Of a stretch of DNA of 35,877 bases, positions 1 to 25,746 are shown piece after piece. The notes beneath the pieces are model-generated. The model did no database searches. It saw only the letters and a list, made by a program, of their open reading frames with translations, and had not been told where the DNA came from. Position 1 is the stretch's first letter, and each line of letters starts with the position of its first letter. The stretch spans positions 1 through 35,877 of the forward strand of contig JAZSNX010000085.1 of NCBI GenBank assembly GCA_045536665.1, given 5' to 3'. Made by a program: the position numbers and the translations under genes. This DNA comes from Eubacteriales bacterium. GTDB taxonomy: Bacteria > Bacillota > Clostridia > Oscillospirales > CAG-272.

Positions 1-85
1 TTTGGGATCTCGGACGAAAAAGTTCGATTCCGCTTCGCTCCACTCAGGATGACACGGCGGGGGTGATTTTGAACGTAAATCTTTT

Positions 86-125
86 GCTTATTTTTTCTCG
101 TAAGATAAACGACAGACTCGACGTG
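86..125 (-). repeat. Displaced, decayed copy of the rlmD 3' coding end (att-like direct repeat, distal copy)
   Basis: The minus strand reads ..THVESVVYLTRK.., against the real RlmD C-terminus ..GHVESVVCLSRK* at 2810-2844. Codons align without gaps and roughly three quarters of the nucleotides are identical. There is no rlmD body upstream of it. Confidence 0.6.
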
Positions 126-229
126 GGTCAAGAGAGCAAAAGGTCTCATTTTAGCCGAAAAACGGGGGTTGTAAGTGCAAAAAGTCTCAATTTTTAGAGT
201 TGGAATGCAATATTGGTCCAAAATCGATA

Positions 230-1840
230 TTACATTTTATCACTTTTCCCCATATTACATCTATCGCAAAGTGTTCTTAAATTGCCCGCAACTGTTTGTC
301 CGCCCTTGGAAACGGGAATTATATGATCTACATGCAATTTAACTCCATCTTGGGCATTAGAGCCACATATTTGACATCGGAAATTATCGCGCTTTAAAAT
401 ATCATATCTTAAAGAGTTTGTCATTTTAGCACGTTCTACTTCGATTTGGTGTTGTCGTGTTTGGCGTTGTTTTTTGGCCTCAATCGTCTCCTTAAAAATA
501 CTTTCCAATTCTCCATAATAAAAACTACGATCTTTCCAATAATGGTTTCGCCCTTGCGGAGATATGTATGTAGCTTTGCAATATATCTCCACATTTACTT
601 GTGGTTCTTTTAATATTTTCTTTTTAAAAATCCGTTCCTCATATTTCAAAAAATTGGTTATAGTAAATCCAAAAGATTGGCAAAATTCTTCAGTAGCACT
701 CGATTTAATATTGCGCACTTGATTAATATATTTGTTATATTCTTTTTTATTTGAGGAAATTGTTTGGATTATGCTACGATAAAATGACTCATTTGAATCA
801 ATTAATGATACCAAATAATCATACAAAGACAAATTATCCAACTGCCTTTTTGAATTGCAGGTCGTATGATTTGTATATTTGGATTGTAATGTTGTAAAAT
901 GTGTGGTGCTGTTTAAAGAAAGTAACGCATTGATTTTTTCACTTTTTTCAGCAACAATCTTTTTATTCTTATAGTCAATAATTAAAAACACACAAAGAAC
1001 GATTATAACAATACCGACAACAATACTCGCTATAATTGAACCAATATTAACATTGTTTTGAGGTTGCTCAATATCCGTGCTAGTAGTGTTTGCTTCATCT
1101 TCTATAACATTGCTAATTGAGCTTTCTTCTTTGAGAATGTGTTCAATACTTGAAATTGGTTTGATTGAATATTGTGCCCATGCTGATTGTTGGTACGTTT
1201 CAACGGCATCGTCAAGCACATACACCGTGAAAGAGGGGTGTACTTTAGTTTGCCAATATTCCGATGGAGTTTGATTAAATATATCTCCAATACTAGGCGG
1301 AGTTGGATTATAAATTACCAGTGTTGTTAGATTTCCGCACCCTTCAAAAACGCCGTTCCCAAAGCTTTCAAAACTACAAGGAACAATTACTGTTGATAAA
1401 TTGCTACACTTAAAGAAAGCCATATCATCAATTCTTTTTAAGTTCCCGTCTTTTGGAAATTCGACTCTTTCTAAATTTCCCATGGAGTGTCCGTCTCTTC
1501 CAGCAAAAGTCCACGAATTGATAGCTACTAAATTTTTAGATCCTATAAGCTCAGTAATTCCTCTTCCAAAGCTACTTCCCATATAACCTATCGCTATGAT
1601 TGGCTTTTTTTCATAGGTTTCGGGTATTTGTAGAACGCCTTCATACTTGTTAGACGAGAATAATCCTGTCAATATTTTCTGTGACATTTCATATCCGCCT
1701 TCAATTTCTTCAAAATCAAACTTATCATAGTCAAATTTGTCAGTATTATCATCGGAGATTTCAACGGCACAGCCAGCTAAACTTATTAAAACAATTAGAA
1801 TGCAGAGAATTAAATATATTAGTTTTGATTTTCTTTTCAT
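230..1840 (-). CDS. Membrane-anchored LRR-TM-HNH protein: lipoprotein signal, BspA-type leucine-rich-repeat ectodomain, one TM helix, unassigned cytosolic domain, C-terminal HNH (beta-beta-alpha-Me) nuclease
   Basis: The tracked ORF is 230..1855. The preferred start is the ATG at 1840 (MKRKSK), preceded by a GGAG; 1855 is a TTG. The signal/lipobox is LIVLISLAGC. LRR units include NLERVEFP..LKRIDDMAFFKCSNLSTVIVPCSFESFGNGVFEGCGNLTTLVI. The TM helix IGSIIASIVVGIVIIVLCVFLII is followed by YKNKK (positive-inside). The HNH motif is CQICG..HVDHIIP..GNLRTLCDRCN. Confidence 0.8.
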   Translation of the reverse strand: MKRKSKLIYLILCILIVLISLAGCAVEISDDNTDKFDYDKFDFEEIEGGYEMSQKILTGLFSSNKYEGVLQIPETYEKKPIIAIGYMGSSFGRGITELIGSKNLVAINSWTFAGRDGHSMGNLERVEFPKDGNLKRIDDMAFFKCSNLSTVIVPCSFESFGNGVFEGCGNLTTLVIYNPTPPSIGDIFNQTPSEYWQTKVHPSFTVYVLDDAVETYQQSAWAQYSIKPISSIEHILKEESSISNVIEDEANTTSTDIEQPQNNVNIGSIIASIVVGIVIIVLCVFLIIDYKNKKIVAEKSEKINALLSLNSTTHFTTLQSKYTNHTTCNSKRQLDNLSLYDYLVSLIDSNESFYRSIIQTISSNKKEYNKYINQVRNIKSSATEEFCQSFGFTITNFLKYEERIFKKKILKEPQVNVEIYCKATYISPQGRNHYWKDRSFYYGELESIFKETIEAKKQRQTRQHQIEVERAKMTNSLRYDILKRDNFRCQICGSNAQDGVKLHVDHIIPVSKGGQTVAGNLRTLCDRCNMGKSDKM

Positions 1841-1895
1841 TTTTACACGCTCCAATTTTAAAACTGCGCCTTAATGAAATAAGCGAAAACATATA

Positions 1896-2516
1896 TTACG
1901 CCAATTCAATATACTGTGGTTTAATATGCCATTCACCGCAGTGCAATGTTAGATCTATTGCTCCTTTTGGAAGCAAGTTATTTGTTAAAACAAACCTAAA
2001 TTCATTTTGGTTATTGTGTTTCGCATCATGTATGAATAATGGGTCAACAAAATTATGTATTTTTGTGAGCCATGAATCATCTTGTAATTTATCAAAATCA
2101 TAGTAGATTATTTTTTCTCCACGTATTCCCCAATTATCTTCCTTAACCCCTTCGCTAATCAGCCGAAAAAGTTCATCCGTATCGAAATATACCAGATGCC
2201 TTCCTAATATCTTGTTTTCAGGAGGAATTAGAATGGTCAGTTTACCTTCGTCATAAACCGCATTGTTTTGGTTGATTGAAGTGCAACAAAATAAGGGTAC
2301 ACGTAAAGTTTCATCATACGATTGGTAATAAGGATTTGGCACTTGAATGTTCTCTATATAGCAAGGATGGGTATAAATAGGGACAGTACCTTCTGAATAT
2401 TGTCGCTGATTATCCCTTTCATTCATAAACCTGCCAGCGGCACTGAAATATATGTTACCCTCTATAAAACCATCTGCATGGTCTTTTTCTTTGAATATCT
2501 TATAACATAGTGGCAT
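1896..2516 (-). CDS. Hypothetical cytosolic protein (206 aa), upstream partner of the LRR-TM-HNH gene
   Basis: Clean ORF with an AAGGAA RBS and AT-rich codon usage like its neighbour, separated from it by 55 nt. It has no TM segment or signal peptide and no catalytic motif I can assign. There is only a weak DUF2971-like flavour (IYFSAAGRFMNERD near the N-terminus, NEFRFVL near the C-terminus), and this is unverified. Confidence 0.6.
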   Translation of the reverse strand: MPLCYKIFKEKDHADGFIEGNIYFSAAGRFMNERDNQRQYSEGTVPIYTHPCYIENIQVPNPYYQSYDETLRVPLFCCTSINQNNAVYDEGKLTILIPPENKILGRHLVYFDTDELFRLISEGVKEDNWGIRGEKIIYYDFDKLQDDSWLTKIHNFVDPLFIHDAKHNNQNEFRFVLTNNLLPKGAIDLTLHCGEWHIKPQYIELA

Positions 2517-2807
2517 ATAATTGTTCCTTTTTCGTTGTATTTTTGTATTTAATCGGTACGTGGAAACATATCAACGGATGTTTTTTATCTGAAATTTTGC
2601 GTTTTTGCAAAAAATGTGCAATTTCAAGGCAAAAACAGAGGTTTTTCCCAATATGTTTCCCAAAACTGCTGTATTTTGATTTTCGACCATAGGTTGAAAA
2701 TCACATTTGTCCCTATGTTAAAAATCGTTAAAACACGAAAAAGAACACCTGTTTTATCGAAAAATGCGCTCAAAAGGCTGAAAAATGCCCATTTTAGTGT
2801 CAAAATC

Positions 2808-2844
2808 GCTTATTTTCGTGACAGACAAACGACCGACTCGACAT
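2808..2844 (-). repeat. Proximal copy of the att-like direct repeat (the functional rlmD 3' end including the stop codon)
   Basis: Matches 86-125 (see that feature). The GC drop begins immediately after the rlmD stop codon at 2810-2812. Confidence 0.6.
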
Positions 2845-4165
2845 GTCCTGTACGGGGGAACATATCAACCGGCTGAACGCTGCCTATCTTGTAACCCGCC
2901 TCTTTGAACCACGCGCAGTCGCGGGCGAGTGTTGTCGGGTCGCAGGAGACGTAGACGATTTTAGGTACGCCAAGAGATGAAAGACACTCCACAAGCTCCT
3001 TTGTGCTTCCCTTTCTCGGTGGGTCGATGATGACGACGTCAGGGCGCGCTCCGCCCATGGCGGTCAGTATATTTTGTGCGTTTCCTGCGTCCGCGCAGTA
3101 AAACTCGGCATTATCTATACCATTGTATTTTGCGTTTTGCTTAGCACATTCAACCGCTGACTGCACTATCTCGATACCAACAAGCTTTTTTGCTTTATCC
3201 GATACGGAAAGACCTATCGTGCCAGTGCCGCAGTAAAGGTCGGCGACCCTCTGTGTACCGTCAAGCTCCGCTTCTTTTGCCGCGAGTCCGTAAAGAAGCT
3301 CCGCTCCCTCTCGGTTGACCTGATAAAACGACTGCGCGGTTATGCGGAAGCGCAGACCGCAAAGCACGTCCTCTATGTAGTCTCTGCCGCGCAAAATACG
3401 ATATTCCTTGCCAAGCACGACGTTTGTATTCTCTGTATTGGTATTGAGCATAAGACTGACTATATTGGGGAAATCAGCCGTTATTTTTTCTGTTATTTCT
3501 TTCTCGCTCGGAAGCGCTCTGCCGTTTACCACGAGGCAGAGCATTATCTCGCCCGTAGCCTCTGCTATGCGCAGATAGATATGGCGCAAAAGTCCGTTGC
3601 CCGTATTTTCGTCGTACGCCTTTATACCGTATTCGTCGCAAATGCGGCAGACCGCGCCCGTGATAGCGGCAAAGGCGGGGTTTTGTATAGCGCAGTCGTC
3701 GACGGGAATGATATTATGCGTTTTTGACGCGTAAAAGCCCGACCTCATACCGTTCTTTGAGTTTGCCACGGGATATTGCGCTTTGTTTCGGTATCCCTTT
3801 ACCTTTTGAGTACTCATAACGGGCAGAACGTCGACGTCCGATAACCCCGCCTTTACAAAAGCGCTTTTAACAAAACCGTGCTTTATCTCAAGCTCGTGCT
3901 CGTAGGTGACGTGTCTGTATACGCACCCTCCGCAGGACAGAGGGGTATCGCACAGCTCGCTCTCCATTCTGTGAGCAGAGGGAGATAGCACCGTGTCAAG
4001 TCTTGCCACGGCGTAGCTTTTATTGTCCTTTATGACGAGCGCGCGTATCCTATCGCCGCTCACAGCTCCCTTGACGAACACTACCTTGCCGTCAAGCCGT
4101 CCGACTCCACAGCCGAGATTGTTTATATCACTTATTTCAAGCTCTATGATATCGCCCTTTTTCAT
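2810..4165 (-). CDS. rlmD: 23S rRNA (uracil-5-)-methyltransferase, RumA/RlmD family
   Basis: N-terminal TRAM-like domain (MKKGDIIELEISDINNLGCGVGRL), Fe-S cysteines (CDTPLSCGGCVYRH), SAM motif DLYCGTGTIGL, and C-terminal VYVSCDPTTLARD. Confidence 0.9.
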   Translation of the reverse strand: MKKGDIIELEISDINNLGCGVGRLDGKVVFVKGAVSGDRIRALVIKDNKSYAVARLDTVLSPSAHRMESELCDTPLSCGGCVYRHVTYEHELEIKHGFVKSAFVKAGLSDVDVLPVMSTQKVKGYRNKAQYPVANSKNGMRSGFYASKTHNIIPVDDCAIQNPAFAAITGAVCRICDEYGIKAYDENTGNGLLRHIYLRIAEATGEIMLCLVVNGRALPSEKEITEKITADFPNIVSLMLNTNTENTNVVLGKEYRILRGRDYIEDVLCGLRFRITAQSFYQVNREGAELLYGLAAKEAELDGTQRVADLYCGTGTIGLSVSDKAKKLVGIEIVQSAVECAKQNAKYNGIDNAEFYCADAGNAQNILTAMGGARPDVVIIDPPRKGSTKELVECLSSLGVPKIVYVSCDPTTLARDCAWFKEAGYKIGSVQPVDMFPRTGHVESVVCLSRK

Positions 4166-4854
4166 TCGGCGTAAAATTCCTTTCCGTCTTCAAGACGCAA
4201 GCAACCGAGCGGCTCTCCGAATGCCGCGCCGCAGTCGAGGAGTATTCCGTACTCACCGCGGTATATTTTTCCGTTCTCCGCTCCGTCTATCTTATATGTG
4301 GGAACGTGTCCCGAAATTATGGTTGCGTCCTTAAAATACAGCTTATCGGGGTCTTGAGGCTCGGATATAAAATCCTCGGGCATATAGTCCTCAAGAGGGG
4401 TGCTCGCGTCGAAGTCCGCAATTCCCGCACCCACGAGAACGTATCTTTTATCCCCTATTTCCACTTCCTCGTAAAGCGACATATCCGAAAGGTATTCAAG
4501 CACGCCCTCGCGCATATCCGCGTCAAGCGCCTTAAAGCCCTCTATGGTCTTAGCTCCGCCGTTCTGCATCCACATCGCCATCTCGGAAAGCGTTTCTCCG
4601 TCGGGCGTCTCGCCATCGCTGAGCATTCTGTCAAGCGCTGTGAGCAGCTTATACGCGCGGTATTCGCACTCTCCAAGCACGGGAATTACGTTATATCTCA
4701 TACTCATATCGCAAAGAAGCTCAACCGGCTCATCTCCGTGGTCGACGATACCGCCGAGAACGTACATAACGTCGGTGTCCTTAAAATCTATCTTTTTCAG
4801 AATATTTTTGAATTTATCAAAGCATCCGTGTGGGTTCGCAATTACGTATGTCAT
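4162..4854 (-). CDS. Metallophosphoesterase (calcineurin-like phosphatase family)
   Basis: N-terminal ANPHG...GGIVDHGDEP and a later GHVP motif typical of dimetal phosphoesterases. It overlaps the rlmD start by 4 nt, consistent with one operon. Confidence 0.7.
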   Translation of the reverse strand: MTYVIANPHGCFDKFKNILKKIDFKDTDVMYVLGGIVDHGDEPVELLCDMSMRYNVIPVLGECEYRAYKLLTALDRMLSDGETPDGETLSEMAMWMQNGGAKTIEGFKALDADMREGVLEYLSDMSLYEEVEIGDKRYVLVGAGIADFDASTPLEDYMPEDFISEPQDPDKLYFKDATIISGHVPTYKIDGAENGKIYRGEYGILLDCGAAFGEPLGCLRLEDGKEFYAE

Positions 4855-4865
4855 ATCTGTTCTCC

Positions 4866-5627
4866 TTATATAAGCTTTATTTTGTTGCTGTTAACTATGT
4901 CGCAGGTAATACCGCCGTCGGTCTCCTCTATCATTTTTTTAAGCACCTTACATACGGGATACTCTGTATGGAAATGTCCTGCCTCGATTATGTTGATACC
5001 CATATCGGGGGCATCGACCAGATTATGATATTTGAGTTCTCCGCTGATAAATGTGTCTGCGCCCGCCTCTATTGCTGCATCTATATAGTCCGATCCGCCA
5101 CCGCCAAGAAGCGCTACCTTACGGCATTTCTTTTTACCGTCTGCCACGAAAACTCCCTCGCAGTCAAGGGCATTTTTTACTGTCCTTGCAAGCTCATCAA
5201 GGTCGGTATCGCAAGCAAGAGTACCTATTCTTCCCATTCCGTCCTCTCCAAATGGCTGGGTGTTGCCGACGCCGCAAAGCTTTGCGAGTGCGTCGTTTAC
5301 ACCGCCCGTGAGCGCGTCAAGACGAGTATGGAACGAAAAGACACAAACGTCGTTCTTTATTAGCTTTATTGCCTTGTCGCATATAAAGCTCTCGCTATCA
5401 ATGCTCTTTATTCCCTTGAAGATAAAGGGGTGGTGGGAGACTATAAGGTCGTAGCCGCCCGCGCACGCGCGCTCGACTATCTCACCCGTTACGTCAAGCG
5501 CAATAAGTACTTTTTTTATTTCTCTGTCTCCGTTCGGGCAGCACATTAGCCCGTCGTTGTCCCATTCGCAGGAAAGAGAGCGCGGTATTTTTTGGTCAAG
5601 TATTCTATAAAGCTCAGAAGCTGTCAT
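4866..5627 (-). CDS. Nif3-like dinuclear metal centre protein (YqfO family)
   Basis: DLIVSHHPFIFKG motif, a C-terminal GHFHTE motif, and conserved pairing with trmK upstream. Confidence 0.85.
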   Translation of the reverse strand: MTASELYRILDQKIPRSLSCEWDNDGLMCCPNGDREIKKVLIALDVTGEIVERACAGGYDLIVSHHPFIFKGIKSIDSESFICDKAIKLIKNDVCVFSFHTRLDALTGGVNDALAKLCGVGNTQPFGEDGMGRIGTLACDTDLDELARTVKNALDCEGVFVADGKKKCRKVALLGGGGSDYIDAAIEAGADTFISGELKYHNLVDAPDMGINIIEAGHFHTEYPVCKVLKKMIEETDGGITCDIVNSNKIKLI

Positions 5628-6315
5628 TTTCTTCTCCTTTTTTTATCGTATTTTCAAGCCTTGCGATAAGCTCTCTTTGCTCGCTCGCGTCCGCTCCCGA
5701 GCGCTCTATGCCCTCAGCTCGGCGCAAGAGCGCGTCGCGGTGGCGTTTCGCAAGCTCGCAAAGCTCTGCTCCGCCTTTTTGTATGTTTATTCGTCCGAGA
5801 AGCAGCTCCTCGGCCGACCATTTTTCTGTTTTTCCTGTGTATCTCGCGAGTATTATTTGATATATCCTCTCTTCCCTTGCGAGACGCTCGTCTATTATCG
5901 AGTAGCCGTTTTCCAAAAGGAAGGCGCGAAGCAGCTCGGGGTGCGTCATCGGCTGAAGACAAAGCTGTATGCCCTCGTTCTTTGTCCAAGGGGCGTCCTC
6001 AAGTATTCTCGCTATGAGCTCTCCGCCCATACCGAGTATGAGTATGTCCTCGGGACAGTATCTATCTATTCCGCAAAGCCCGTCCGTACGTATGGCGGTG
6101 AGCTTTTGGGTAAGTCCGTATTTTTTTATATTTTCTTTCGCACGCTGTATCGGACCGGCGTTTATGTCCGAGACAATGCCGCCTCTCGCCTTGCCATCAA
6201 GGCACAGAGCGATCGGAAGATAGGCATGATCAGTGCCTACGTCACAAACGAACGCTCCGTGGCGGACGAGCTCTGCCGCCGCCGCGAGACGCGCTCCTAA
6301 ATTAATGGAATTCAT
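5614..6315 (-). CDS. trmK: tRNA (adenine22-N1)-methyltransferase
   Basis: FVCDVGTDHAYLPIAL and ILILGMGGELI motifs of the TrmK/YqfN family. It overlaps nif3 by 14 nt, the classic trmK-nif3 pair. Confidence 0.85.
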   Translation of the reverse strand: MNSINLGARLAAAAELVRHGAFVCDVGTDHAYLPIALCLDGKARGGIVSDINAGPIQRAKENIKKYGLTQKLTAIRTDGLCGIDRYCPEDILILGMGGELIARILEDAPWTKNEGIQLCLQPMTHPELLRAFLLENGYSIIDERLAREERIYQIILARYTGKTEKWSAEELLLGRINIQKGGAELCELAKRHRDALLRRAEGIERSGADASEQRELIARLENTIKKGEENDSF

Positions 6316-6378: not shown

Positions 6379-6582
6379 TTATTTTTCGGACGCAAGAAAA
6401 TCGTTGATCTGCTTTACGAGCGCGTCGGCATCAGTGCCGTGCACCATGCAAGCGTCCTCGATAGACTCGCCACGAGCCGAAGGACAACCGAGGCAGTGCA
6501 TACCGATAGCGAAGAAGAACTGCGCTGTTGCGGGAGCGGCGTCAAGAACGTCACCAATGATGGATTGCTTTGTTACCTGCAT
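6379..6582 (-). CDS. DUF1858 / hybrid-cluster-protein-associated redox disulfide domain protein (67 aa)
   Basis: IGDVL...P.TA..F...GMHCLGCP....ESIE.A...HG pattern typical of this small family. It has a strong RBS (AGGAGG). Confidence 0.75.
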   Translation of the reverse strand: MQVTKQSIIGDVLDAAPATAQFFFAIGMHCLGCPSARGESIEDACMVHGTDADALVKQINDFLASEK

Positions 6583-6623
6583 TATATTTACCTCCTATTT
6601 TTAGATATTATTATACACTATAT

Positions 6624-6652
6624 ATTATAAGGCTTATTTGCTCCTTTGTCAA
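6624..6652 (-). promoter_or_regulatory. Sigma-A type promoter for the DUF1858 gene
   Basis: The minus strand reads TTGACA (6647-6652), 17 nt, TATAAT (6624-6629). Confidence 0.6.
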
Positions 6653-6904
6653 TAATTTGCCTCGAAATGCCCTAAAAATTCATTAAATTAGTATTTGTAG
6701 GGGAGTTAGCTTCATCAAGCAGTAGGAGAGGCTATCAGTCTCCGATTTTTACAAAATCATCTGCAGACAGATCCTAATTTGAAAGTCTATTGCCATCGTA
6801 AGCATCTCCGGAGGATATCACAATAAGGAGTACTGCCTCATCGATGCCCCAATATTTTGTCGATTTGTGCAAATTGGAGAAAAAGAAAAATTTTCAAAAA
6901 AGTC

Positions 6905-7036
6905 TTGACAAGCTTTTTAAAAAAGTTTTCCACAGGCAAAAAAACTTTTTTTATTTTTTTGCCCTTGATTTTCAAGGTTTTCCACACAATCCACAGAGTT
7001 TTCCACAGGCTCAAAAAACTCAAAAAAGCTTGTCAA
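6905..7036. repeat. 132-bp module bounded by perfect 14-bp inverted repeats (TTGACAAGCTTTTT / AAAAAGCTTGTCAA)
   Basis: IR-L is at 6905-6918 and IR-R at 7023-7036; they are exact reverse complements. The interior is AT-rich and contains the DnaA-box-like sites. Confidence 0.7.
6926..7007 (+). promoter_or_regulatory. Cluster of four co-oriented DnaA-box-like 9-mers
   Basis: TTTTCCACA occurs at 6926-6934, 6978-6986 and 6999-7007, and CAATCCACA at 6987-6995 (consensus TTATCCACA). Two boxes sit in a roughly 22-bp direct repeat, AGTTTTCCACAGGC(T)CAAAAAAC. Confidence 0.6.
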
Positions 7037-7097
7037 TACCCAATTTGCGTCTTTTGTCAATTTTATATATTTTTACCAAAAATAAAAATTTGCAATT

Positions 7098-7120
7098 AAA
7101 AAAACCCCCATTTTGGGGGC
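7098..7120 (-). terminator. Rho-independent terminator downstream of aroK
   Basis: The minus strand reads CCCCCAAAATGGGGG followed by TTTTTTTAA. Confidence 0.7.
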
Positions 7121-7245
7121 TGAGTGGTGGAAGCGATTGTAAATCGAAAGTGTATTTGTAAACAAAATGTAACTAAATGGTTAATACATTTAATGGAAGG
7201 AATTTTCCTCTCATTCTCCTAAACGCAGATGTTTTTGTGACGTGT

Positions 7246-12673: not shown

Positions 12674-12705
12674 AAAAAAGAGCTAAGCCTCAGCGACTTA
12701 GCTCT
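12674..12705 (-). terminator. Terminator after pflA (possibly bidirectional with the SLH gene)
   Basis: The minus strand reads AGAGCTAAGtcgctgaggCTTAGCTCT followed by TTTTTTATAG. The pflA stop codon lies in the loop. Confidence 0.65.
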
Positions 12706-13397
12706 AATGTTTTTTGTAAGCTTACGATTCGTTCATTACTCATCTGCGGTGTTCCCTCAAGCGGGAAGGGTATGCCGAGAGAGCGGTATTTTTCAAGACA
12801 AAGCGTTCTGAACGGCAGCAGCTCTATTTTCTCAACACAGGCAAACGGCTTGACAAGCTCACAAAGCTTTTTTACGTTCTCTTCGCCGTCGTTGATATCG
12901 GGTACTACGACGTGTCTTATCCACACGGGTATCCCTTTTTTATCAAGGATATCAAGAAAGGCAAGCGTGTCCGCAAGGCTACCGCCGATATATCGCTGAT
13001 AGCTCTGCTCGTCGGTCATCTTTATGTCAAGCAGCACGAGGTCAACGTAGGAGAGCAGGCGCTCCACGCTGTCGTTATATATCGCACCGCTCGTGTCGAG
13101 CGCTATATGCAAGCCCTTTTGTTTGAGAAGTACCGCTATCTCGCGGAGAAAGTCTGCCTGAACACACGGCTCGCCGCCGGAAAAGGTGACACCGCCGTTC
13201 TTTATATACGGATAAAGGCGCAAGATCTTGTCTGCTATGTCGCTCGCGTCCGCAAGGTCAGCCTCACGACATTCCCATGTGTCGGGGTTGTGGCAATAGG
13301 CACAGCGCAAAGGGCAGCCCTCGGTAAACAGCACCGCCCTTATGCCCGGTCCGTCCACTGTGCCAAGCGACTGTAAGCTGTGAACGTAGCCTTTCAT
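12690..13397 (-). CDS. pflA: Pyruvate formate-lyase activating enzyme (radical SAM)
   Basis: CPLRCAYCHN radical-SAM cluster motif. It lies directly downstream of pflB. Confidence 0.95.
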   Translation of the reverse strand: MKGYVHSLQSLGTVDGPGIRAVLFTEGCPLRCAYCHNPDTWECREADLADASDIADKILRLYPYIKNGGVTFSGGEPCVQADFLREIAVLLKQKGLHIALDTSGAIYNDSVERLLSYVDLVLLDIKMTDEQSYQRYIGGSLADTLAFLDILDKKGIPVWIRHVVVPDINDGEENVKKLCELVKPFACVEKIELLPFRTLCLEKYRSLGIPFPLEGTPQMSNERIVSLQKTLELSR

Positions 13398-13399
13398 AA

Positions 13400-15634
13400 T
13401 TATACCGTTTCGTGGAACGTTCTGCTTATGACTTCCTTTTGCTGTTCCTTTGAGAGCTTATGGAAGTTTACCGCATAGCCCGACACACGGATAGTGAGGT
13501 TGGGATATGCATCGGGATCGTTCATAGCGTCGATAAGCTTTTGTCTGTCAAGCACGTTGACGTTTATATGGTGCGCGTTCTGCGCGAAATATCCCTCAAG
13601 TATATTGACAAGGTTTGCGCGTCTTTCCGTCTCGTTCGTGCCAAGCGCGTCGGGAACTATGGAGAAGGTGTTGGAGATACCGTCGCGGCAAGCGTCATAG
13701 CTGAGCTTTGCTACGGAATTGAGCGACGCAAGAGCGCCGCACTTCTCGCGGTTGTGCATTGGATTCGCGCCCGGGGCAAACGGCTCGCCCGCCTCGCGTC
13801 CGTCGGGAGTTGCGCCCGTCTTTTTACCGTAAACGACGTTACTTGTTATTGTAAGCACGGAAAGCGTATGAACGGCATTTCTATAGGTCGGGTTCTTGCG
13901 AAGGTCGGTGATGAGCGTTTCAAGTATCTCCTGCGCGATGGAGTCAACTCTGTCGTCGTCGTTTCCGAACTTGGGGAAGTCTCCCTCTGTATCAAAGCCG
14001 CATATAAGTCCTCTTTCGTCTATTATCGGACGAACGGTCGCGTACTTTATCGCGGAGAGGCTGTCGGCAATAACTGAAAGTCCTGCCGCGCCAAACGCCA
14101 TAAGGCGCTCAACGTTTGTGTCGTGAAGCGCGAGCTGAGTTCTTTCATACGCGTACTTGTCGTGCATAAAGTGGATAACGTTCATTGTGTCGACGTACTC
14201 GCCCGCAAGCCAATTCATATAGTAGTCAAGACGTCTGCGTACCTCGTCGTAGTCAAGGACGTCACACTTCATAACGGGCATTTCAGGACCTATCTGCATA
14301 TCGTACTTTTCCTCGCGTCCGCCGTTAAGCGCGAGGAGCAGTATCTTAGGTAGGTTGCATCGAGCTCCGAAGAACTGCATCTGCTTGCCCACCTTCATCG
14401 CGCTTACGCAGCAAGCGATAGCGTAGTCGTCGCCGTATATCGGACGCATAAGGTCATCGCTCTCATACTGAATGGAGTCGGTGTCGATAGATACCTTAGC
14501 GCAATAGCGCTTGAACGTATCGGGAAGCTTGTTGGACCACAGTACCGTGAGGTTTGGCTCGGGCGCGCTTCCGAGGTTGTAGAGCGTGTGCAAAAATCTG
14601 AACGCGTTTTTGGTGACAAGCGTTCTTCCGTCGTTGCCCATACCTCCGACAGCCTCGGTTATCCACATAGGATCACCGCCGAAGAGCTCGTTGTATTCGG
14701 GTGTGCGCAGGTGTCTTATCATACGGAGCTTGATAACGAATTGGTCGATAAGCTCCTGAGCGCCCTGCTCGTCAAGTATTCCGCGGCGCAGGTCTCTCTC
14801 AAGATAGATATCGAGGAACGTGCCGACTCTGCCGAGCGACATAGCCGCGCCGTTCTGCTCCTTGTTTGCGGCGAGATAGCCGAAGTACAGCCACTGTACC
14901 GCCTCTTTTGCGTCGTTTGCGGGGCGAGAAATGTCGATTTCGTACAAAGCCGCCATCTCCTTGAGCTTGCCAAGGAATTCTATCTGCTTGTAAAGCTCTT
15001 CGGAAAGACGGATATTCTCCTCTGTCATTCTCTGCTTGCCGAGCTCAGCCTTATCAAGCTTTTTCTGCTCAATAAGATAATCTATACCGTAAAGAGCGAT
15101 ACGGCGGTAATCTCCGATAATTCTTCCTCTGCCGTAGGCATCGGGAAGACCTGTGAGTATTCCCGTATGTCTCATAGCTCTCATTGTGTCGGTGTATACT
15201 CTGAAAACTCCGTCGTTATGCGTTGTGCGGTAAAGAAACTCCTGCTCTATCTTGTCGGAAAGCTCGTAGCCGTAGGCGCGGCAGGCGCTTCTCGCCATTC
15301 TTATACCGCCAAAGGGGTTGACCTCTCTTTCAAGAGGAGCGCTCGTTTGAAGTCCGACGATAAGCTCGTCCTCTTTTTTGAGATATGCCGCGGGGTAGTT
15401 CGTAAGCGATGTTACAGTGCGGGTATCTATGCTGATAACTCCGCCCTTCTCTTTCTCCTCGCGCAGCTTGTCCTCAAACGCCGCCATAACTCTCTTTGTT
15501 CGCTCTGTGGCGGGCGCGAGAAAGCTCTCGTCGCCAATATACGGTGTATAATTCTTTTGGATAAATTCTCTGACGTTGATAGCGTCGCACCAAGTGCCGC
15601 CAATAAAACCGTTCCATTCCTTTTCAAATCTCAT
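13400..15634 (-). CDS. pflB: Formate C-acetyltransferase (pyruvate formate-lyase, glycyl radical enzyme)
   Basis: 744 aa, with the C-terminal glycyl-radical motif [11 protein letters not shown] and an active-site CC ([10 protein letters not shown]). Confidence 0.95.
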
Positions 15635-15673: not shown

Positions 15674-15712
15674 AAAAATAAAAGGGCAGTTTTGTTCTCC
15701 GCAAAACTGCCC
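15674..15712 (-). terminator. Expression-platform terminator of the ZTP riboswitch
   Basis: The minus strand reads GGGCAGTTTTGcggagaaCAAAACTGCCC followed by TTTTATTTTT, about 40 nt before the pflB ATG. The 5' arm overlaps the aptamer 3' end. Confidence 0.75.
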
Positions 15713-15783
15713 AGACGGTCGGCTTATTATTCTCGAGCTCCACGTAGGTCTCCCTACTATTTCCGTCAGTTACTCGGGAACTT
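15706..15783 (-). promoter_or_regulatory. ZTP (pfl motif) riboswitch aptamer in the pflB leader
   Basis: The minus-strand RNA reads ..CCCGAGUAACUGACGGAAAUAGUAGGGAGACCUACGUGGAGCUCGAG..(linker)..GCCGACCGUCUGGGCAG. It contains the conserved ACUGACGGA and CCGACCGUCUGGGC elements, and GACGG/CCGUC pseudoknot complementarity is visible. The genomic context (pfl) is the one that gave the motif its name. Confidence 0.8.
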
Positions 15784-17813: not shown

Positions 17814-20117
17814 ATGGAGTACAGTTTGAAGGAAGTCGCAGGAAGAATCAAAGATCTGCGCGAAGCAAAGGGATATACGCAGGAAGAGCTTGCAAAGCTC
17901 ACGGGTGTATCCGTTGAGGAATACCGTGTCCTTGAAAAGGGAGACACGGATTTTAGCTTTACTTTTATTTACAAGTGCGCAAAGGCTTGCGACGTTGAGG
18001 TCGTCGACCTGCTTGAGGGTCGAAGCTCGACGCTTACGTCCTTTGCTATTACGAGAAAGGGAGACGGACTTAAGATTGTCAAGAAGCACGGATTTGTTTA
18101 TAACAACCTTGCGCCCAAGTTCAAGGATAAGCTCGCAGAGCCGTTCCTCGTTAAGTTCCCGTATCTGCCTGAGGAGCAGAACGCTCCCATAAAGCTCAGC
18201 TCACATAACGGCCAGGAATTTGACGTTATCGTCAAGGGCTCTCTTAAGGTTCAGGTCGGAAATCACGTGGATATCCTTCACGAGGGCGACTCCATCTTCT
18301 ATAACAGCCTTATTCCCCACGGTATGATAGCCGTTAGCGAGGGTGGCTGTGAGTTCCACGCGGTCGTTCTTAATCCTCAGGACGGACTTGTAAGCGAGGA
18401 ATATCCCGAGGTGCCTTATACGACAGCTAAGGTCGTTGATAAGGAAGAGACCGAAACGAGGACCGTCGCCGACAATTTCGTGGAATCCTACTACGACGAA
18501 AACGGCGTATTCAACGGAATCAAGTTCAAGAATGACGATAAGTTCAACTTTGCGTTTGACTGCGTTGACGCTATCGCCGACAAGACTCCCGATAAGCTCG
18601 CGATGATGTGGGTCGCAAACGACAAGACCGATCGTAAGTTTACCTTTAAGGATATGAAGAAGTACTCCGCAAAGACGGCAAACTACTTCGAGTCGCTCGG
18701 AATAAAGAAGGGCGATACGGTAATGCTCGTCCTTAAGAGACACTATCAGTTCTGGTTCTGTATGCTCGCTCTCCATAAGATCGGCGCTATCGCTATCCCC
18801 GCTACAAACCAGCTCGTGGAGCACGACTTTGAGTACAGATACAAGGCGGCGGGCGTTAAGGCTATCGTTTGTACGGCAGACGGCGACGTATCCGCCGAGG
18901 CGGAAAAGGCAGCGGCGCACTTCCCCGGAATGCTCAAGATATTGGTTGGCGGCAAAAAGGACGGCTGGAATGACTTCAACGTTGAAATGGAGCGCTTTAG
19001 CACGCATTACTTCCGCACCGAGAGCACTCCCTGTGGCAACGATCCTATGCTTATGCTCTTTACGTCGGGTACTACTGGATATCCCCGTATCGCGACACAT
19101 TCCTATAAATACGCGCTCGGTCACTATCCCACCGCAAAGCATTGGCACAACGTAAATCCGAACGGCTTGCACTTCACTATTTCGGATACAGGCTGGGGTA
19201 AGGCTCTTTGGGGAAAGCTGTACGGTCAGTGGCTGTGCGAGGCGGGTATATTTACATATGACTTCGACAGATTCCATTCCGAGGATATCCTGCCGATGTT
19301 CGCGAAATATCATATCACAACGTTCTGCGCTCCCCCCACGATGTACCGCTTCTTTATAAAGGAGGATCTGTCAAAGTACGATCTCTCCTCTATCGAGTAC
19401 GCGACGACAGCCGGCGAGGCGCTCAACCCCGAGGTATTCAACCAGTTCAAGAAGGCGACGGGACTTACCATTATGGAAGGCTTCGGTCAGACCGAAACTA
19501 CTCTTTCTATCGCAAACTTCGTCGGCTCTACGCCCAAGATCGGTTCTATGGGAAGACCCAGTCCTCTTTATGACGTTGTGGTTCTTGATCCCGACGGCAA
19601 CGAGTGCAGTATCGGTGACACGGGTGAGATCTGTATCCGCACAAAGGACAGCGTTCCCTGCGGACTCTTTATCGGATACTATCTTGACAAGGAAAAGACC
19701 GAGGACGTTTGGCACGACGGATATTACCACACGGGTGATACCGCTACCATGGACGAGGACGGATATCTGTGGTACGTCGGACGTATCGACGACGTTATCA
19801 AATCGTCGGGATACCGTATCGGCCCGTTTGAGATAGAAAGCGTTATTATGGAGCTTCCATACGTTCTCGAATGCGCGGTCACTCCCGTTCCCGATGAGGT
19901 GCGCGGACAGATAGTAAAGGCGACTGTCGTGCTCGTTAAGGGCAAAGAGGGCAGCGACGCGCTCAAGAAGGAGATCCAGGAATACGTTAAGACGCACACC
20001 GCGCCTTATAAGTATCCGAGAATAGTTGAGTTTGTCGACGAGCTTCCCAAGACCATCAGCGGTAAGGTAAGACGTGTCGAGATCCGCAAAAACGATTTGG
20101 AAAAATTGCAGAAGTAA
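17814..20117 (+). CDS. Fusion protein: XRE-type HTH + cupin + AMP-forming medium-chain acyl-CoA synthetase (ACSM/MACS-like)
   Basis: The ATG at 17814 lies 9 nt after an AAAGGAG RBS. HTH: GYTQEELAKLTGVSVEEYRVLEKG. Cupin: GQEFDVIVKGSLKVQVGNHVDILHEGDSIFYNSLIPHGM. Adenylation motifs: FTSGTTGYPR, YHTGD, GRIDDVIKSSGYRIGPFEIES, PKTISGKVRR. Confidence 0.85.
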   Translation: MEYSLKEVAGRIKDLREAKGYTQEELAKLTGVSVEEYRVLEKGDTDFSFTFIYKCAKACDVEVVDLLEGRSSTLTSFAITRKGDGLKIVKKHGFVYNNLAPKFKDKLAEPFLVKFPYLPEEQNAPIKLSSHNGQEFDVIVKGSLKVQVGNHVDILHEGDSIFYNSLIPHGMIAVSEGGCEFHAVVLNPQDGLVSEEYPEVPYTTAKVVDKEETETRTVADNFVESYYDENGVFNGIKFKNDDKFNFAFDCVDAIADKTPDKLAMMWVANDKTDRKFTFKDMKKYSAKTANYFESLGIKKGDTVMLVLKRHYQFWFCMLALHKIGAIAIPATNQLVEHDFEYRYKAAGVKAIVCTADGDVSAEAEKAAAHFPGMLKILVGGKKDGWNDFNVEMERFSTHYFRTESTPCGNDPMLMLFTSGTTGYPRIATHSYKYALGHYPTAKHWHNVNPNGLHFTISDTGWGKALWGKLYGQWLCEAGIFTYDFDRFHSEDILPMFAKYHITTFCAPPTMYRFFIKEDLSKYDLSSIEYATTAGEALNPEVFNQFKKATGLTIMEGFGQTETTLSIANFVGSTPKIGSMGRPSPLYDVVVLDPDGNECSIGDTGEICIRTKDSVPCGLFIGYYLDKEKTEDVWHDGYYHTGDTATMDEDGYLWYVGRIDDVIKSSGYRIGPFEIESVIMELPYVLECAVTPVPDEVRGQIVKATVVLVKGKEGSDALKKEIQEYVKTHTAPYKYPRIVEFVDELPKTISGKVRRVEIRKNDLEKLQK

Positions 20118-20130
20118 ATAGCAAAATTTA

Positions 20131-20165
20131 AAATCGGCAGAGATATTGTTTCTTTGCCGATTTTA
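20131..20165 (+). terminator. Terminator after the acyl-CoA synthetase gene
   Basis: AATCGGCAGAGAtattgttTCTTTGCCGATT (one mismatch) followed by TTT. Confidence 0.6.
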
Positions 20166-20184
20166 TGTTATAATAAATTGGGTG

Positions 20185-20518
20185 ATGGAAATGGAAAAGT
20201 TTGAAAAAAGGAAAACCACGAGATTGCAAGGCTTTGATTATAACCGTACAGGTGCGTTTTTTCTTACGATATGCACCAAAGATAGGCGTTGCTTGCTCTT
20301 GACAGAGGACGCCGGTCCCTACAATACAAAACACAGAGCCCTCGAAGTTTGTCTCTACGTTCAAGCGATTTTGTAATAAAGAATACGGAGAAAACATTTG
20401 GCAATACCGTTCCAACGATCATATTATACGCAATCGCGCTGACTACGAGGAGCATTTGAGATATATACACGAGAATCCATTGCGCTGGCAATTTGATAAA
20501 TTGTACGTTGAAGAATAA
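20185..20518 (+). pseudogene. Internally deleted, frameshifted RAYT/IS200-like (Y1, HUH) transposase relic
   Basis: The N-terminal piece reads RLQGFDYNRTGAFFLTICTKDRRCLL (frame of 20185). The C-terminal piece reads FVSTFKRFCNKEYGENIWQYRSNDHIIRNRADYEEHLRYIHENPLRWQ in the +1 frame and ends at 20518. The HUH-containing middle (about 70 aa in intact homologues) is absent, and the usual YDH tyrosine reads NDH. Confidence 0.6.
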
Positions 20519-20529
20519 GGAGATATTCA

Positions 20530-25657: not shown

Positions 25658-25691
25658 TGTTCTTACTTCCTTTCGTCAATACTACACCTTA

Positions 25692-25720
25692 AGTATATCA
25701 TAACGGCAGATGTTTGTCAA
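25692..25720 (-). promoter_or_regulatory. Promoter for the LRR lipoprotein gene
   Basis: The minus strand reads TTGACA (25715-25720), 17 nt, TATACT (25692-25697). Confidence 0.55.
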
Positions 25721-25746
25721 TAGACCGCAACCAATAGTTGAGATGC

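What the first reader, a model, noticed from the sequence alone, without database searches (positions are those of the whole stretch)
86..2844. AT-rich two-gene islet inserted precisely at the rlmD 3' end, bracketed by a duplicated rlmD tail
Base composition drops sharply immediately after the rlmD stop codon and recovers near position 126. At the far end (86-125) there is a decayed second copy of the last 12 or so codons of rlmD (THVESVVYLTRK vs GHVESVVCLSRK). That is the footprint expected when a site-specific element integrates into a gene's 3' end and supplies a replacement tail. The rumA/rlmD 3' end is an established integration hotspot for Tn5252-family ICEs in streptococci. Here the insert is only about 2.7 kb and contains no integrase, relaxase or transposase. 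It is therefore either a stripped remnant or a minimal cargo islet mobilised in trans. Its cargo is the candidate novel system.
Basis: partly seen in the sequence, partly recalled or inferred. Interest (0 to 1): 0.7.

Follow-up and report, generated by a model that had tools for sequence, protein, structure and literature searches.

The report
Integrase-less gene cassette in rlmD tail
A 2.7 kb horizontally acquired cassette with no recombinase of its own sits at one exact codon near the end of the ribosomal RNA methyltransferase gene rlmD; it belongs to an apparently undescribed family of small cassettes that stack up at this site in gut Clostridia, and it carries a candidate two-gene nuclease system.

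Summary
Window 126-2809 has 33.7% GC against 50.5% in the flank. The rlmD tail is duplicated (86-125 versus 2810-2845, z about 8).

The insert runs from the His codon of rlmD (2845) to 126. The same element, 80-91% identical in DNA, sits at the same codon in hosts whose RlmD is only 33-48% identical. It always supplies the tail HVESVVCLSRK* and always ends in a conserved 66-nt arm (126-191) next to the host's displaced tail.

An arm pattern recovered 33 more metagenome loci. Almost all show arm | CAYGTNGAR | rlmD pseudo-tail, and up to four cassettes lie in tandem. Median cassette length is 549 nt. ORFs are co-oriented with rlmD 31 to 4, and identical cassettes occur in different arrays. Larger siblings carry restriction-modification (RM) systems; a TIR gene follows the arm in one locus.

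No recombinase lies in any element or in the 33 kb of window beyond rlmD. The closest relative with the site in view (L124) lacks the element.

The best reading is a cassette moved in trans by an unidentified site-specific recombinase. It resembles CIME, SCC or integron cassettes but is a member of none of them.

The cargo is an unknown-fold 206-aa protein and a lipoprotein-LRR-TM-HNH nuclease. Relatives of both form a gene pair elsewhere, and neither matches a known defence system.

The parts
2810..4165 (-). rlmD (23S rRNA U1939 methyltransferase, 451 aa). The host part is 4165..2846. The last 11 codons plus the stop (2845..2810) come from the element.
   Evidence: Pfam tRNA_U5-meth_tr plus TRAM. 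There is 80% nt synteny with relatives L118-L124 through the gene. The homology breakpoint is seen in alignment A1.
2837..2845 (-). Left core CATGTCGAG (His-Val-Glu codons), the attL-side junction and crossover region.
   Evidence: Four loci are unrelated in DNA upstream of CAYGTCGAG and about 90% identical downstream of it. The same 9-mer follows the arm at the other end.
2810..2845 (-). Element-borne replacement tail HVESVVCLSRK*, which keeps rlmD intact.
   Evidence: The last seven residues plus stop (VVCLSRK*) are identical in the window, L081, L082 and L083 (the full tail in all but L082, which reads HVET), although the host RlmD proteins are only 33-48% identical.
2517..2809 (-). Conserved ~300-nt leader: spacer, CLE, and a stem partner. 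It is shared with sibling elements that carry restriction-modification systems.
   Evidence: Alignment A5 includes L093 (NgoPII RM) and L113 (RM). The consensus fold is -19.6 against -5.0 +/- 2.6 for column shuffles. No sigma-70 consensus was found here.
2644..2716 (-). CLE, a 72-nt conserved element (GGGACAAATGTGA, hairpin 2681-2705, ACAGCAGTTT..AACATAT) that precedes ORFs in rlmD-downstream arrays.
   Evidence: It is nearly invariant in A1. nhmmer finds about 30 copies in the related loci. There is no Rfam match.
2556..2577 (-). rlmD-like fragment CCGTTGATATGTTTCCACGTAC ('VDMFPRT'). It copies the rlmD segment just 5' of the core and is predicted to pair with the 3' end of the CLE.
   Evidence: Repeat D4 is 90% over 20 nt against 2850-2869. 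Close copies occur only in the ORF206 elements, and the GATATGTTTCC core is also kept in L093 and L113. A long-range stem appears in the consensus fold.
1896..2516 (-). Cargo gene 1: 206-aa protein of unknown fold and function.
   Evidence: No Pfam, NCBIfam or PADLOC hit; a weak hit to phrog_26561. The word-indexed search found 6 close homologues, the 4 whose contexts were looked up all lying next to rlmD; exhaustive HMMER found 24 proteins at E <= 0.001, mostly remote. AF2 pLDDT is 88.5, with no PDB or BFVD fold match.
230..1840 (-). Cargo gene 2: 536-aa lipoprotein (lipobox SLAGC), extracytoplasmic BspA-type LRR, one TM helix, a cytoplasmic helical domain, and a C-terminal HNH nuclease.
   Evidence: Pfam LRR_5 and HNH/HNH_5. 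Homologues P0007-P0029. Alignment A4 shows invariant HNH residues. AF2 pLDDT is 90, and only the HNH part matches PDB entries (Gme HNH, McrA).
126..191 (-). Right arm of the element: 66 nt with two direct repeats GAGACYTTTTGC (175-188 and 134-147, 41 nt apart), ending in TTGACC. This is the presumed recombinase recognition site.
   Evidence: Repeat D7. Alignment A2 across 6 loci. The arm HMM hits the window at E = 4e-18. The metagenome scan found 33 loci (34 arm copies). There is no consensus fold on either strand.
86..125 (-). Displaced original host tail (core CACGTCGAG at 117-125, then SVVYLTRK..), the attR side. An AA insertion has shifted its stop out of frame.
   Evidence: Its first 17 nt are identical to the rlmD tail of the closest relative L124.
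1..57 (-). Host flank: a hairpin-array repeat that in relatives precedes a small GIY-YIG or four-helix-bundle gene. It is probably the reason the contig ends here.
   Evidence: It is 98% identical to L118 10180-10236.

Best explanation
Window 126-2845 is a horizontally acquired integrative cassette with no recombinase of its own, inserted by site-specific recombination at the His-Val-Glu codons (CAYGTCGAG) 11 codons before the rlmD stop.

In its free form the element would read arm (66 nt, two direct repeats), then core, then a mimic of the rlmD tail, then leader, then cargo. Crossover in the core puts the element's tail onto rlmD, so the gene stays intact. It pushes the host's own tail to the far end, next to the arm.

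The element carries no recombinase. Integration and excision must therefore be catalysed in trans by an enzyme that recognises the arm and core. That step is inferred and the enzyme is not identified.

The element belongs to a family of such cassettes, from about 0.2 to 3.8 kb, that accumulate in tandem downstream of rlmD in Oscillospiraceae-like gut Clostridia. They are co-oriented with rlmD. In the short cassettes the retained tail codons supply the ribosome-binding site of the next ORF.

The cargo here is a two-gene module: an unknown-fold 206-aa protein and a membrane-anchored HNH nuclease with an outward-facing LRR domain. By its company (the larger sibling cassettes carry RM systems, and a TIR gene follows the arm in L085), it is most likely a defence or abortive-infection system. 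In that reading, envelope-level sensing by the LRR domain gates a cytoplasmic nuclease. This functional reading is inference only.
For: Shown directly:
- GC 33.7% against 50.5%, and a significant tail duplication.
- A homology breakpoint exactly at CAYGTCGAG in four loci.
- Element DNA 91% (L083) and 80% (L081) identical while the host RlmD proteins are 37%, 48% and 33% identical, all ending in the same seven residues VVCLSRK*.
- ORF206 homologues lie directly downstream of rlmD in three different gene neighbourhoods.
- The right arm is conserved in the window, L003, L004 and L081-L084, each followed by a host-specific tail.
- The arm pattern found 33 metagenome loci. In 28 of 34 copies the arm is followed by TTGACC|CAYGTNGAR and an in-frame HVE[ST].V..L pseudo-tail. 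Two more have HIE variants and two run off contig ends.
- Tandem arrays with up to 4 arms in 2.1 kb, where tail codons overlap the RBS and ATG of the next ORF.
- 29 delimited cassettes, median 549 nt, ORFs 31 co-oriented and 4 opposed; all arms lie on the rlmD strand.
- The same cassettes occur in different arrays and positions: L095 matches L103 at 96%, L091 matches L115 at 97%, and the ORF89 cassette is in L113, L004, L002 and L118.
- The closest relatives share 80% nt synteny through rlmD. L124 has rlmD followed directly by the hairpin array, with no arm. L118 has different content between the same flanks.
- No recombinase domain in the 20 long ORFs scanned between 7.2 and 32.6 kb, nor in the cargo; the three long ORFs between 32.7 and 35.3 kb were not scanned.
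- Sibling cargo: NgoPII RE with a C5 MTase, MjaI RE downstream of a methyltransferase-like partial ORF (not scanned), an N6/N4 MTase with an unknown protein, and in L085 a TIR-domain gene just downstream of the arm and tail.
- An ORF206-family protein also precedes a TM-HNH homologue at a non-rlmD locus (E = 9e-22), so the pair is a conserved module.
Against: No recombinase was found, either adjacent or on any element carrying this arm. Viral contigs, plasmids and phages gave no match. No excised circle or same-species empty site could be examined, because the nearest relatives share only 84% RlmD identity.

Many metagenome hits come from one sequencing project (JAEIGA01), so the copies are not all independent. 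The crossover point cannot be placed more precisely than the start of the tail.

L004 and L129 duplicate a long tail-plus-small-gene-plus-CLE segment on both sides of the cargo. Homologous recombination could also produce that arrangement.

The defence role of the cargo rests on domain content and guilt by association. PADLOC gave only HNH-domain-level hits.
Confidence: 0.75

Rival explanations
1. The islet is a stripped remnant. A full ICE, IME or prophage with its own integrase once integrated at rlmD and decayed in place to 2.7 kb. This is a classical CIME produced by deletion.
For: rumA/rlmD is a known target of integrase-bearing ICEs and IMEs in Firmicutes, and CIMEs arise by decay while keeping attL and attR. 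No integrase is present in the window.
Against: The same compact element with the same ends occurs in hosts whose RlmD is only 33-48% identical. Independent decay would not give identical architectures. Sibling cassettes are as small as 190-300 nt, carry a single ORF and have uniform arms. None of about 45 arm-bearing loci shows an integrase. Known rumA elements place attR inside a serine integrase gene, whereas this arm is non-coding, with a stop in the tail frame.
Confidence: 0.1
2. This is a hotspot exchanged by homologous recombination. The genes were swapped in by recombination in conserved flanks (rlmD on one side, the hairpin-array or small-gene region on the other), and no dedicated site-specific system is involved.
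For: L118 and the window share both flanks but have different content between them. L129 and L004 carry long duplicated leader segments that could support homologous crossover.
Against: Hosts carrying the same element share no usable DNA homology in rlmD; blastn finds only 42-135 nt patches. The breakpoint falls at the same codon each time. A tail duplication plus a conserved non-coding arm at every junction is not expected from flank-mediated replacement.
Confidence: 0.06
3. Mobility is homing-endonuclease-driven. The HNH protein, or the GIY-YIG genes seen nearby in relatives, cuts naive rlmD 3' ends, and repair copies the cassette in.
For: An HNH nuclease lies in the cargo. GIY-YIG and LEM-3 GIY-YIG genes sit directly after rlmD in L118 and L129.
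Against: The HNH protein is a lipoprotein with an LRR ectodomain and a TM helix, which is atypical for a homing enzyme. Most sibling cassettes encode no nuclease of this kind. Homing needs flanking homology, which is absent between the hosts, and it does not create tail duplications.
Confidence: 0.04
4. The ~100-nt arm+core+tail unit is itself a small repeat (MITE- or REP-like) that has spread between pre-existing genes. The genes between copies are not mobile.
For: The unit is short, highly conserved and repeated in tandem regions.
Against: Whole segments from core to arm, cargo included, are shared between unrelated hosts and between different arrays, with boundaries at the core. All copies are on one strand and in frame with an rlmD tail.
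Confidence: 0.05

Closest known systems
CIMEs (cis-mobilizable elements) and accretion at att sites of streptococcal ICEs and IMEs (PMC5704250)
   Same: The element is flanked by attL- and attR-like sites, has no integrase or transfer genes, is integrated in the 3' end of a conserved gene with the gene end restored, and accretes in tandem at the same site.
   Different: No cognate ICE or IME with the same arm was found. The cassettes are far smaller (down to about 0.2 kb), uniform, mostly single-ORF and co-oriented. They look like a cassette system rather than decay products.
rumA-targeting ICEs and IMEs with a single serine integrase (Tn5252-, Tn1549- and vanG-type conjugation modules, IME_SpnAP200_rumA, C. 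difficile CTn5; PMC4701971, PMC5704250)
   Same: The target gene (rumA/rlmD) is the same, and integration exchanges the gene's 3' part.
   Different: Those elements are large, encode the integrase, and have attR inside the integrase gene, which changes the protein ends. Here there is no integrase, the arm is non-coding, and the RlmD C-terminus is precisely preserved. Whether the same rumA position is used was not checked.
SCC and pseudo-SCC elements at rlmH (orfX) in staphylococci, and the Enterococcus cassette chromosome (bioRxiv 10.64898/2026.03.31.715619; PMC6222049; otherwise general knowledge)
   Same: Integration is at the 3' end of an rRNA methyltransferase gene without inactivating it. 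Direct repeats mark each junction. Tandem composites form, and many members lack the recombinase genes and depend on Ccr in trans.
   Different: The target gene, site sequence and host clade all differ. No ccr-type recombinase was seen. The cassettes are one to two orders of magnitude smaller than SCC.
Integron gene cassettes and CALIN arrays (PMC8618304)
   Same: Both involve short, mostly single-ORF cassettes with no sigma-70 consensus upstream where checked (this element only), co-oriented and stacked downstream of one fixed site. Each cassette carries its own ~100-nt recombination site, and cassettes are shared between arrays.
   Different: The site is not an attC. It has direct repeats and no conserved hairpin on either strand. 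No IntI gene lies next to the array. The insertion point is inside a housekeeping gene's coding end rather than an attI. The hosts are Clostridia; my recollection, not checked here, is that integrons are essentially unreported there.
HNH-nuclease defence components (Septu PtuB, McrA-type type IV enzymes) and membrane-tethered anti-phage nucleases
   Same: The C-terminal HNH matches PtuB and REase models at domain level and Gme HNH and McrA by fold. The neighbouring cassettes carry RM and TIR genes.
   Different: There is no ATPase partner (so not Septu), no methylase, and no DNA-modification reader domain. The lipoprotein-LRR-TM architecture and the ORF206 partner are not in PADLOC.

Membership tests
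Serine-integrase rumA ICE/IME (Tn5252 superfamily type) | Integrated within rumA/rlmD with exchange of the gene's 3' part | tested here: met
   The breakpoint is at the HVE codons and the element supplies the tail.
Serine-integrase rumA ICE/IME (Tn5252 superfamily type) | Encodes a serine integrase whose gene contains attR | tested here: not met
   No recombinase domain in either cargo ORF. The arm next to the displaced tail is non-coding.
Serine-integrase rumA ICE/IME (Tn5252 superfamily type) | Conjugation or mobilisation module (relaxase, T4SS, oriT) | tested here: not met
   The element has only two ORFs, ORF206 and LRR-TM-HNH.
CIME | Bounded by attL and attR generated by site-specific integration | tested here: met
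   Core repeat at both ends, a conserved arm, and displaced host tails across many loci.
CIME | Lacks integration and transfer genes | tested here: met
CIME | Derived from, and mobilised in cis by, a related ICE or IME using the same att sites | tested here: inconclusive
   No integrase-bearing element with this arm appeared in 33 metagenome loci, 80 GTDB loci, viral contigs, plasmids or phages. Most contigs are short, however.
Integron gene cassette | attC site: an imperfect inverted repeat that folds as single-stranded DNA | tested here: not met
   The alifold energy of 32 arm copies is 0.0 on both strands, no better than column shuffles. The arm consists of direct repeats.
Integron gene cassette | IntI integrase and attI adjacent to the array | tested here: not met
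   Upstream of rlmD lie a metallophosphoesterase (named from L118/L124 synteny), NIF3, TrmK and housekeeping genes. No recombinase was found in the long ORFs scanned, which cover 7.2-32.6 kb of the window.
Integron gene cassette | Short, co-oriented cassettes without their own promoter, stacked in arrays and shared between arrays | tested here: met
   Median 549 nt, ORFs 31 to 4 co-oriented, up to 4 per 2.1 kb, shared cassettes. For this element there are two co-oriented ORFs and no sigma-70 consensus upstream.
SCC / pseudo-SCC | Integration at the 3' end of rlmH through the ISS recognised by Ccr serine recombinases | tested here: not met
   The target is rlmD (PF05958), not rlmH. No ccr-like gene was seen. 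The resemblance is by analogy only.
Known anti-phage defence systems (PADLOC-DB v2) | Full-length match of the component proteins to a system model | tested here: not met
   There are only HNH-domain-level hits (REase_II 4.8e-8, PtuB 4.3e-5) and nothing for ORF206.
Type II restriction-modification system | Cognate DNA methyltransferase next to the nuclease | tested here: not met
   There is no methylase in the window element. The sibling elements L081 and L082 pair ORF206 with an HTH-C5 methylase and a different 365-aa protein.

The most novel reading that the evidence does not exclude
The rlmD 3' end in these gut Clostridia may be the docking site of a previously undescribed cassette-capture platform. 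It would be functionally analogous to an integron but mechanistically unrelated. Promoterless mini-cassettes each carry a ~100-nt double-stranded site (a 66-nt arm with two direct repeats, the CAYGTCGAG core, and an rlmD-tail mimic that doubles as the next gene's RBS). They are stacked and shuffled by a dedicated recombinase encoded elsewhere and expressed by read-through from rlmD. The window's element would be a large, leader-bearing member delivering a new membrane-gated HNH defence module.
Probability: 0.4. Interest if true: 0.85.

Novelty: new variant of a known kind. Interest (0 to 1): 0.7.

Why it matters
If the family is real and active, it gives Clostridia a compact way to collect and exchange single genes and small defence systems at a housekeeping gene without damaging it. 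From my own knowledge (not checked here), classical integrons are essentially unreported in this phylum.

The 66-nt arm is a simple sequence handle. It can be used to mine gut metagenomes for accessory and defence genes, and to look for the missing recombinase, which could be a useful site-specific tool targeting a near-universal coding motif.

The cargo pair is a testable candidate for a new defence architecture that links an extracytoplasmic sensor to a cytoplasmic nuclease.

Tried and rejected
- **Exact-sequence look-ups** of the three window proteins found nothing, although a 100% identical rlmD cluster on a 35,877-nt contig exists.
- **Rfam**, at gathering and E-value thresholds on the islet and on L004, found nothing for the arm, the CLE or the hairpin arrays.
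- **A tRNA or tmRNA target** was ruled out. The only tRNA is at 28.2 kb.
- **attC-like folding of the arm** was rejected.
- **A recombinase in the window** was not found in the long ORFs scanned, 7.2-32.6 kb.
- **Arm patterns in viral contigs** gave 0 hits, twice. The islet against annotated plasmids and phages also gave no match.
- **ORF365 of L081 as a relative of the HNH protein** was rejected: no similarity.
- **ORF206 function** could not be assigned. Pfam, NCBIfam, PADLOC and PDB sequence searches were negative. A confident AF2 model has no PDB or BFVD neighbour. I considered a PD-(D/E)xK reading of the conserved D..QNExR motif, but no fold search supports it.
- **The middle domain of the HNH protein** has no fold match.
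- **A literature search** for rlmD/rumA cassette arrays or integron-like systems in Firmicutes found nothing matching.
- **One profile comparison call** failed internally and was replaced by a local hmmsearch.


Full report
**1. The observation**

rlmD lies on the minus strand at 2810-4165 (Pfam tRNA_U5-meth_tr plus TRAM). Immediately past its stop codon the GC content falls to 26-38% and stays low until about position 126. Window 126-2809 is 33.7% GC, against 50.5% for 2810-6315. It is the lowest-GC 2.7 kb stretch of the contig. GC3 is 0.27-0.30 in the two ORFs and 0.50-0.58 in rlmD and its neighbours.

The repeat finder reports 93-125 against 2813-2845 at 79% over 33 nt. The local alignment scores 19, against 10.0 +/- 1.1 (maximum 16) in shuffles. 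The translations are THVESVVYLTRK and GHVESVVCLSRK.

The window is a complete contig from an NCBI MAG: a 100% identical RlmD cluster sits on a 35,877-nt contig. Only 85 nt of far flank exist.

**2. Where the foreign DNA begins and ends**

ORF206 has six close homologues in 5.8 billion proteins. The four whose genomic contexts were retrieved lie directly downstream of an rlmD gene. They sit in three different neighbourhoods: an AraC regulator upstream in L081, an RlmA-like methyltransferase upstream in L083/L084, and the metallophosphoesterase-NIF3-TrmK block in the window.

Aligning the four junctions (A1) shows sequences unrelated in DNA upstream of CAYGTCGAG and about 90% identical from that 9-mer onward. 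This places the left edge at window 2845, the first base of the His codon. The host RlmD proteins are 37% (L083), 48% (L081) and 33% (L082) identical to the window's. The element is 91% (L083) or 80% (shared part, L081) identical in DNA. All four rlmD genes end in the same seven residues, VVCLSRK*.

At the other end, window 100-185 matches L004 and L003. Alignment A2 shows a conserved ~66-nt arm. It has two direct repeats 41-42 nt apart and the consensus ..ATACCTTTTGGAGTTTCCACCCCCRTTTTTG.C...TTTTATACCTTTTGGAGTCTTGACC. The arm ends exactly at CAYGTCGAG and is followed by a tail that differs from host to host (HVESVVYLTRK, HVESVVCLTKK, HVETLVVLQRK, HVESVVCLTRR). In the window the arm is 126-191, its repeats are at 175-188 and 134-147, and the displaced host tail is 86-125.

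**3. A family, and arrays**

A pattern built from the arm (TTTGN3TTN3ACCCCYRTTTTTN13ACCTTT) found 33 metagenome loci and none in viral contigs. Of 34 arm copies, 28 are followed by TTGACC|CAYGTNGAR and an in-frame pseudo-tail HVE[ST].V.L. Two more have HIE variants, two run off contig ends, and two are fused to a hairpin array.

An arm HMM then revealed tandem arrays. L091 has four arm/core units within 2.1 kb, and L087, L095, L103, L104, L106, L110, L113 and L116 have two or three. In the short cassettes the last tail codons (..ACGAGGAG....GAAAGGAG..) are the ribosome-binding site of the next ORF, whose ATG follows within about 10 nt.

Across 29 cassettes delimited on both sides, the median length is 549 nt (range 188-3787). 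ORFs are 31 co-oriented with rlmD and 4 opposed. Every arm is on the rlmD strand.

Cassettes recur in different arrays and positions. L095 158-733 matches L103 2151-2687 at 96%. L091 595-783 matches the first cassette after rlmD in L115 at 97%. A small TM-protein cassette (ORF89) appears in L113, L091, L103, L118, L002 and L004.

Larger members carry restriction-modification systems. These include NgoPII endonuclease with a C5 methylase and DUF6680 in L093, MjaI endonuclease downstream of a methyltransferase-like partial ORF (not scanned) in L098, an N6/N4 methylase with an unknown protein in L113, and ORF206 with ORF365 and an HTH-C5 methylase in L081/L082. In L085 a TIR-domain gene lies just downstream of the arm and pseudo-tail.

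**4. Relatives without the element**

The closest RlmD proteins (84% identity; L118-L123 and L124) share the full upstream synteny at about 80% nt identity (SKI, gatCAB, DUF1858, trmK, nif3, metallophosphoesterase, rlmD).

In L124 the rlmD tail runs straight into a hairpin array and a four-helix-bundle gene, with no arm. That is what the window would look like without the insert. The window's displaced tail shares its first 17 nt with the L124 tail.

In L118 a different gene (a LEM-3-type GIY-YIG nuclease) lies between the tail and a hairpin array that is 98% identical to window 1-57. L129 (78% RlmD) carries another arm-bounded insert, ORF671, between two identical tail, hairpin, GIY-YIG and CLE segments.

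Still, the site is clearly polymorphic among near relatives.

**5. Mechanism**

The following are shown: precise, recurrent junctions at one codon; a conserved non-coding arm; element-borne tails; displaced host tails; tandem accretion; and transfer between hosts that lack DNA homology.

The following is inferred: a site-specific recombinase acting in trans. No recombinase domain occurs in the cargo or in the long ORFs scanned between 7.2 and 32.6 kb. None was seen in the ORFs listed for 14 of the larger arm-bearing loci, of which ten were also scanned against Pfam.

The arm has no conserved secondary structure on either strand. It is therefore not an attC-type folded site. Its two direct repeats, four helical turns apart, look like arm-type or accessory binding sites. 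CTTGAC-CCAC-GTCGAG is an imperfect palindrome at the junction (one search flagged it as a small hairpin).

Whether the enzyme is a tyrosine or a serine recombinase cannot be decided from these data. Known rumA-targeting elements in streptococci and C. difficile use a single serine integrase whose gene contains attR (PMC4701971). That architecture is absent here.

**6. The leader**

Between the tail and ORF206 lies a ~300-nt segment conserved not only in the ORF206 elements but also in the RM-carrying L093 and L113 (A5). It contains a 72-nt element that I call CLE (2644-2716). The CLE occurs about 30 times in rlmD-downstream loci, typically just 5' of an ORF and ending in an RBS-like AAAGGAG in most copies. 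It has a hairpin whose arms differ compensatorily between copies (CAACC/GGTCG against CGAG/CTCG).

The leader also contains a 22-nt copy of the rlmD segment just 5' of the core (2556-2577, 'VDMFPRT'). I first read this fragment as a relic of a nested insertion. However, its GATATGTTTCC core is conserved across elements with different cargo. The consensus fold pairs it with the 3' end of the CLE (-19.6 against -5.0 +/- 2.6 for shuffles). Its role remains unexplained; it could be regulatory RNA structure or a recombinase site.

No sigma-70 consensus was found upstream of ORF206. Read-through from rlmD, or a non-consensus promoter in the CLE, is the likely source of expression.

**7. The cargo**

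ORF536 (ATG at 1840) has four recognisable parts: a lipoprotein signal (lipobox SLAGC), a BspA-type LRR region, one TM helix followed by a Lys-rich segment, and a C-terminal HNH domain. The topology is therefore LRR outside and nuclease inside.

Its C-terminal half (TM, a ~170-aa helical domain, and HNH) exists alone in about 15 homologues with invariant HNH residues. The AF2 model (pLDDT 90) matches PDB entries only through the HNH domain (Gme HNH, McrA).

ORF206 has no Pfam, NCBIfam, PADLOC or PDB relative. It has 24 remote homologues in 1.84 billion representatives. Its confident model (pLDDT 88.5) has no structural neighbour.

A 232-aa member of the ORF206 family directly precedes a TM-HNH homologue (P0016) at an unrelated locus in three assemblies (hmmsearch E = 9e-22). 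The two genes therefore form a conserved pair.

Given the RM and TIR company at this site, a defence or abortive-infection role is the best guess. One specific possibility is that an envelope signal sensed by the LRR domain releases a membrane-tethered nuclease. Both statements are inference only.

**8. Comparison and verdict**

The element behaves like a CIME or pseudo-SCC: att-flanked, without a recombinase, and accreting at the 3' end of an rRNA methyltransferase gene. The family as a whole behaves like integron cassettes: short, co-oriented, stacked and shared. It fails the defining tests of each of these families, and of the serine-integrase rumA elements (see the membership table).

I found no description of such arrays in the literature that I could search. 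I rate it a new variant of a known kind.

Noticed in passing
window 2644-2716 (-); also L002, L003, L004, L129, L131 and many metagenome loci: A 72-nt conserved element (CLE: GGGACAAATGTGA, a hairpin, then AAAATACAATTTACAGCAGTTTAGTATAACATATCGAAAGGAG) sits just 5' of ORFs in rlmD-downstream regions, in about 30 copies. The hairpin arms co-vary. It has no Rfam family and no sigma-70 consensus.
   Followed up: partly
window 2556-2577 (-) together with 2651-2665 (-): A 22-nt copy of the rlmD 'VDMFPRT' coding segment lies inside the element. It is conserved in siblings with different cargo and is predicted to pair with the 3' end of the CLE (13-bp long-range stem). The CLE 3' end is also complementary to the genuine rlmD segment at 2850-2869.
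   Followed up: partly
window 1-57; L003 3750-3960; L004 9340-9530 and 10760-10970; L118 10060-10350; L124 9345-9575; L129 11350-11495: Arrays of short hairpins with fixed spacers ('gtcatcctgagtggagcgaagcg', 'catgaattg', 'gtgaagtt') precede small four-helix-bundle (23S IVS/Avd-like) or 84-93-aa GIY-YIG genes directly after rlmD tails. They look like a separate selfish or regulatory module, and they probably caused the contig break.
   Followed up: no
L002 10001-11743 (also protein P0083, 591 aa with PF04266): An ORF whose product resembles an ASCH domain (judged by eye; the homologue P0083 carries PF04266) is inserted in frame between a foreign tail (GHVETVALLSRQ) and the host tail (ESVVCLTRK*). 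The result is an annotated 580-aa RlmD fusion.
   Followed up: no
L129 11321-14560; L004 9309-11400: The cargo gene plus arm is flanked by two copies of a long tail, hairpin, small-gene and CLE segment. The flanking stretch inspected (about 190 nt) is identical in L129. In L004 they encode nearly the same protein with many synonymous differences. This suggests either repeated acquisition with the same leader or gene conversion.
   Followed up: partly
L126-L128 4935-6984: An ORF206-family protein (232-252 aa) and a TM-HNH protein (327 aa) form the same gene pair at a non-rlmD locus, downstream of a RadC-like gene.
   Followed up: partly
window 15702-15783 (-): A ZMP/ZTP riboswitch (56.8 bits) lies upstream of a pyruvate formate-lyase-like gene (13400-15634) and its radical-SAM activase (12690-13397). 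This is an ordinary 'pfl motif' arrangement.
   Followed up: no
window 24377-25657 (-); other low-GC patches at 6500-7200, 20000-21000 and 25500-26500: A second BspA-type LRR protein (426 aa) and several other AT-rich patches occur elsewhere in the contig. One of them holds a YcxB-like gene at 20530-21030. None was examined for insertion signatures.
   Followed up: no
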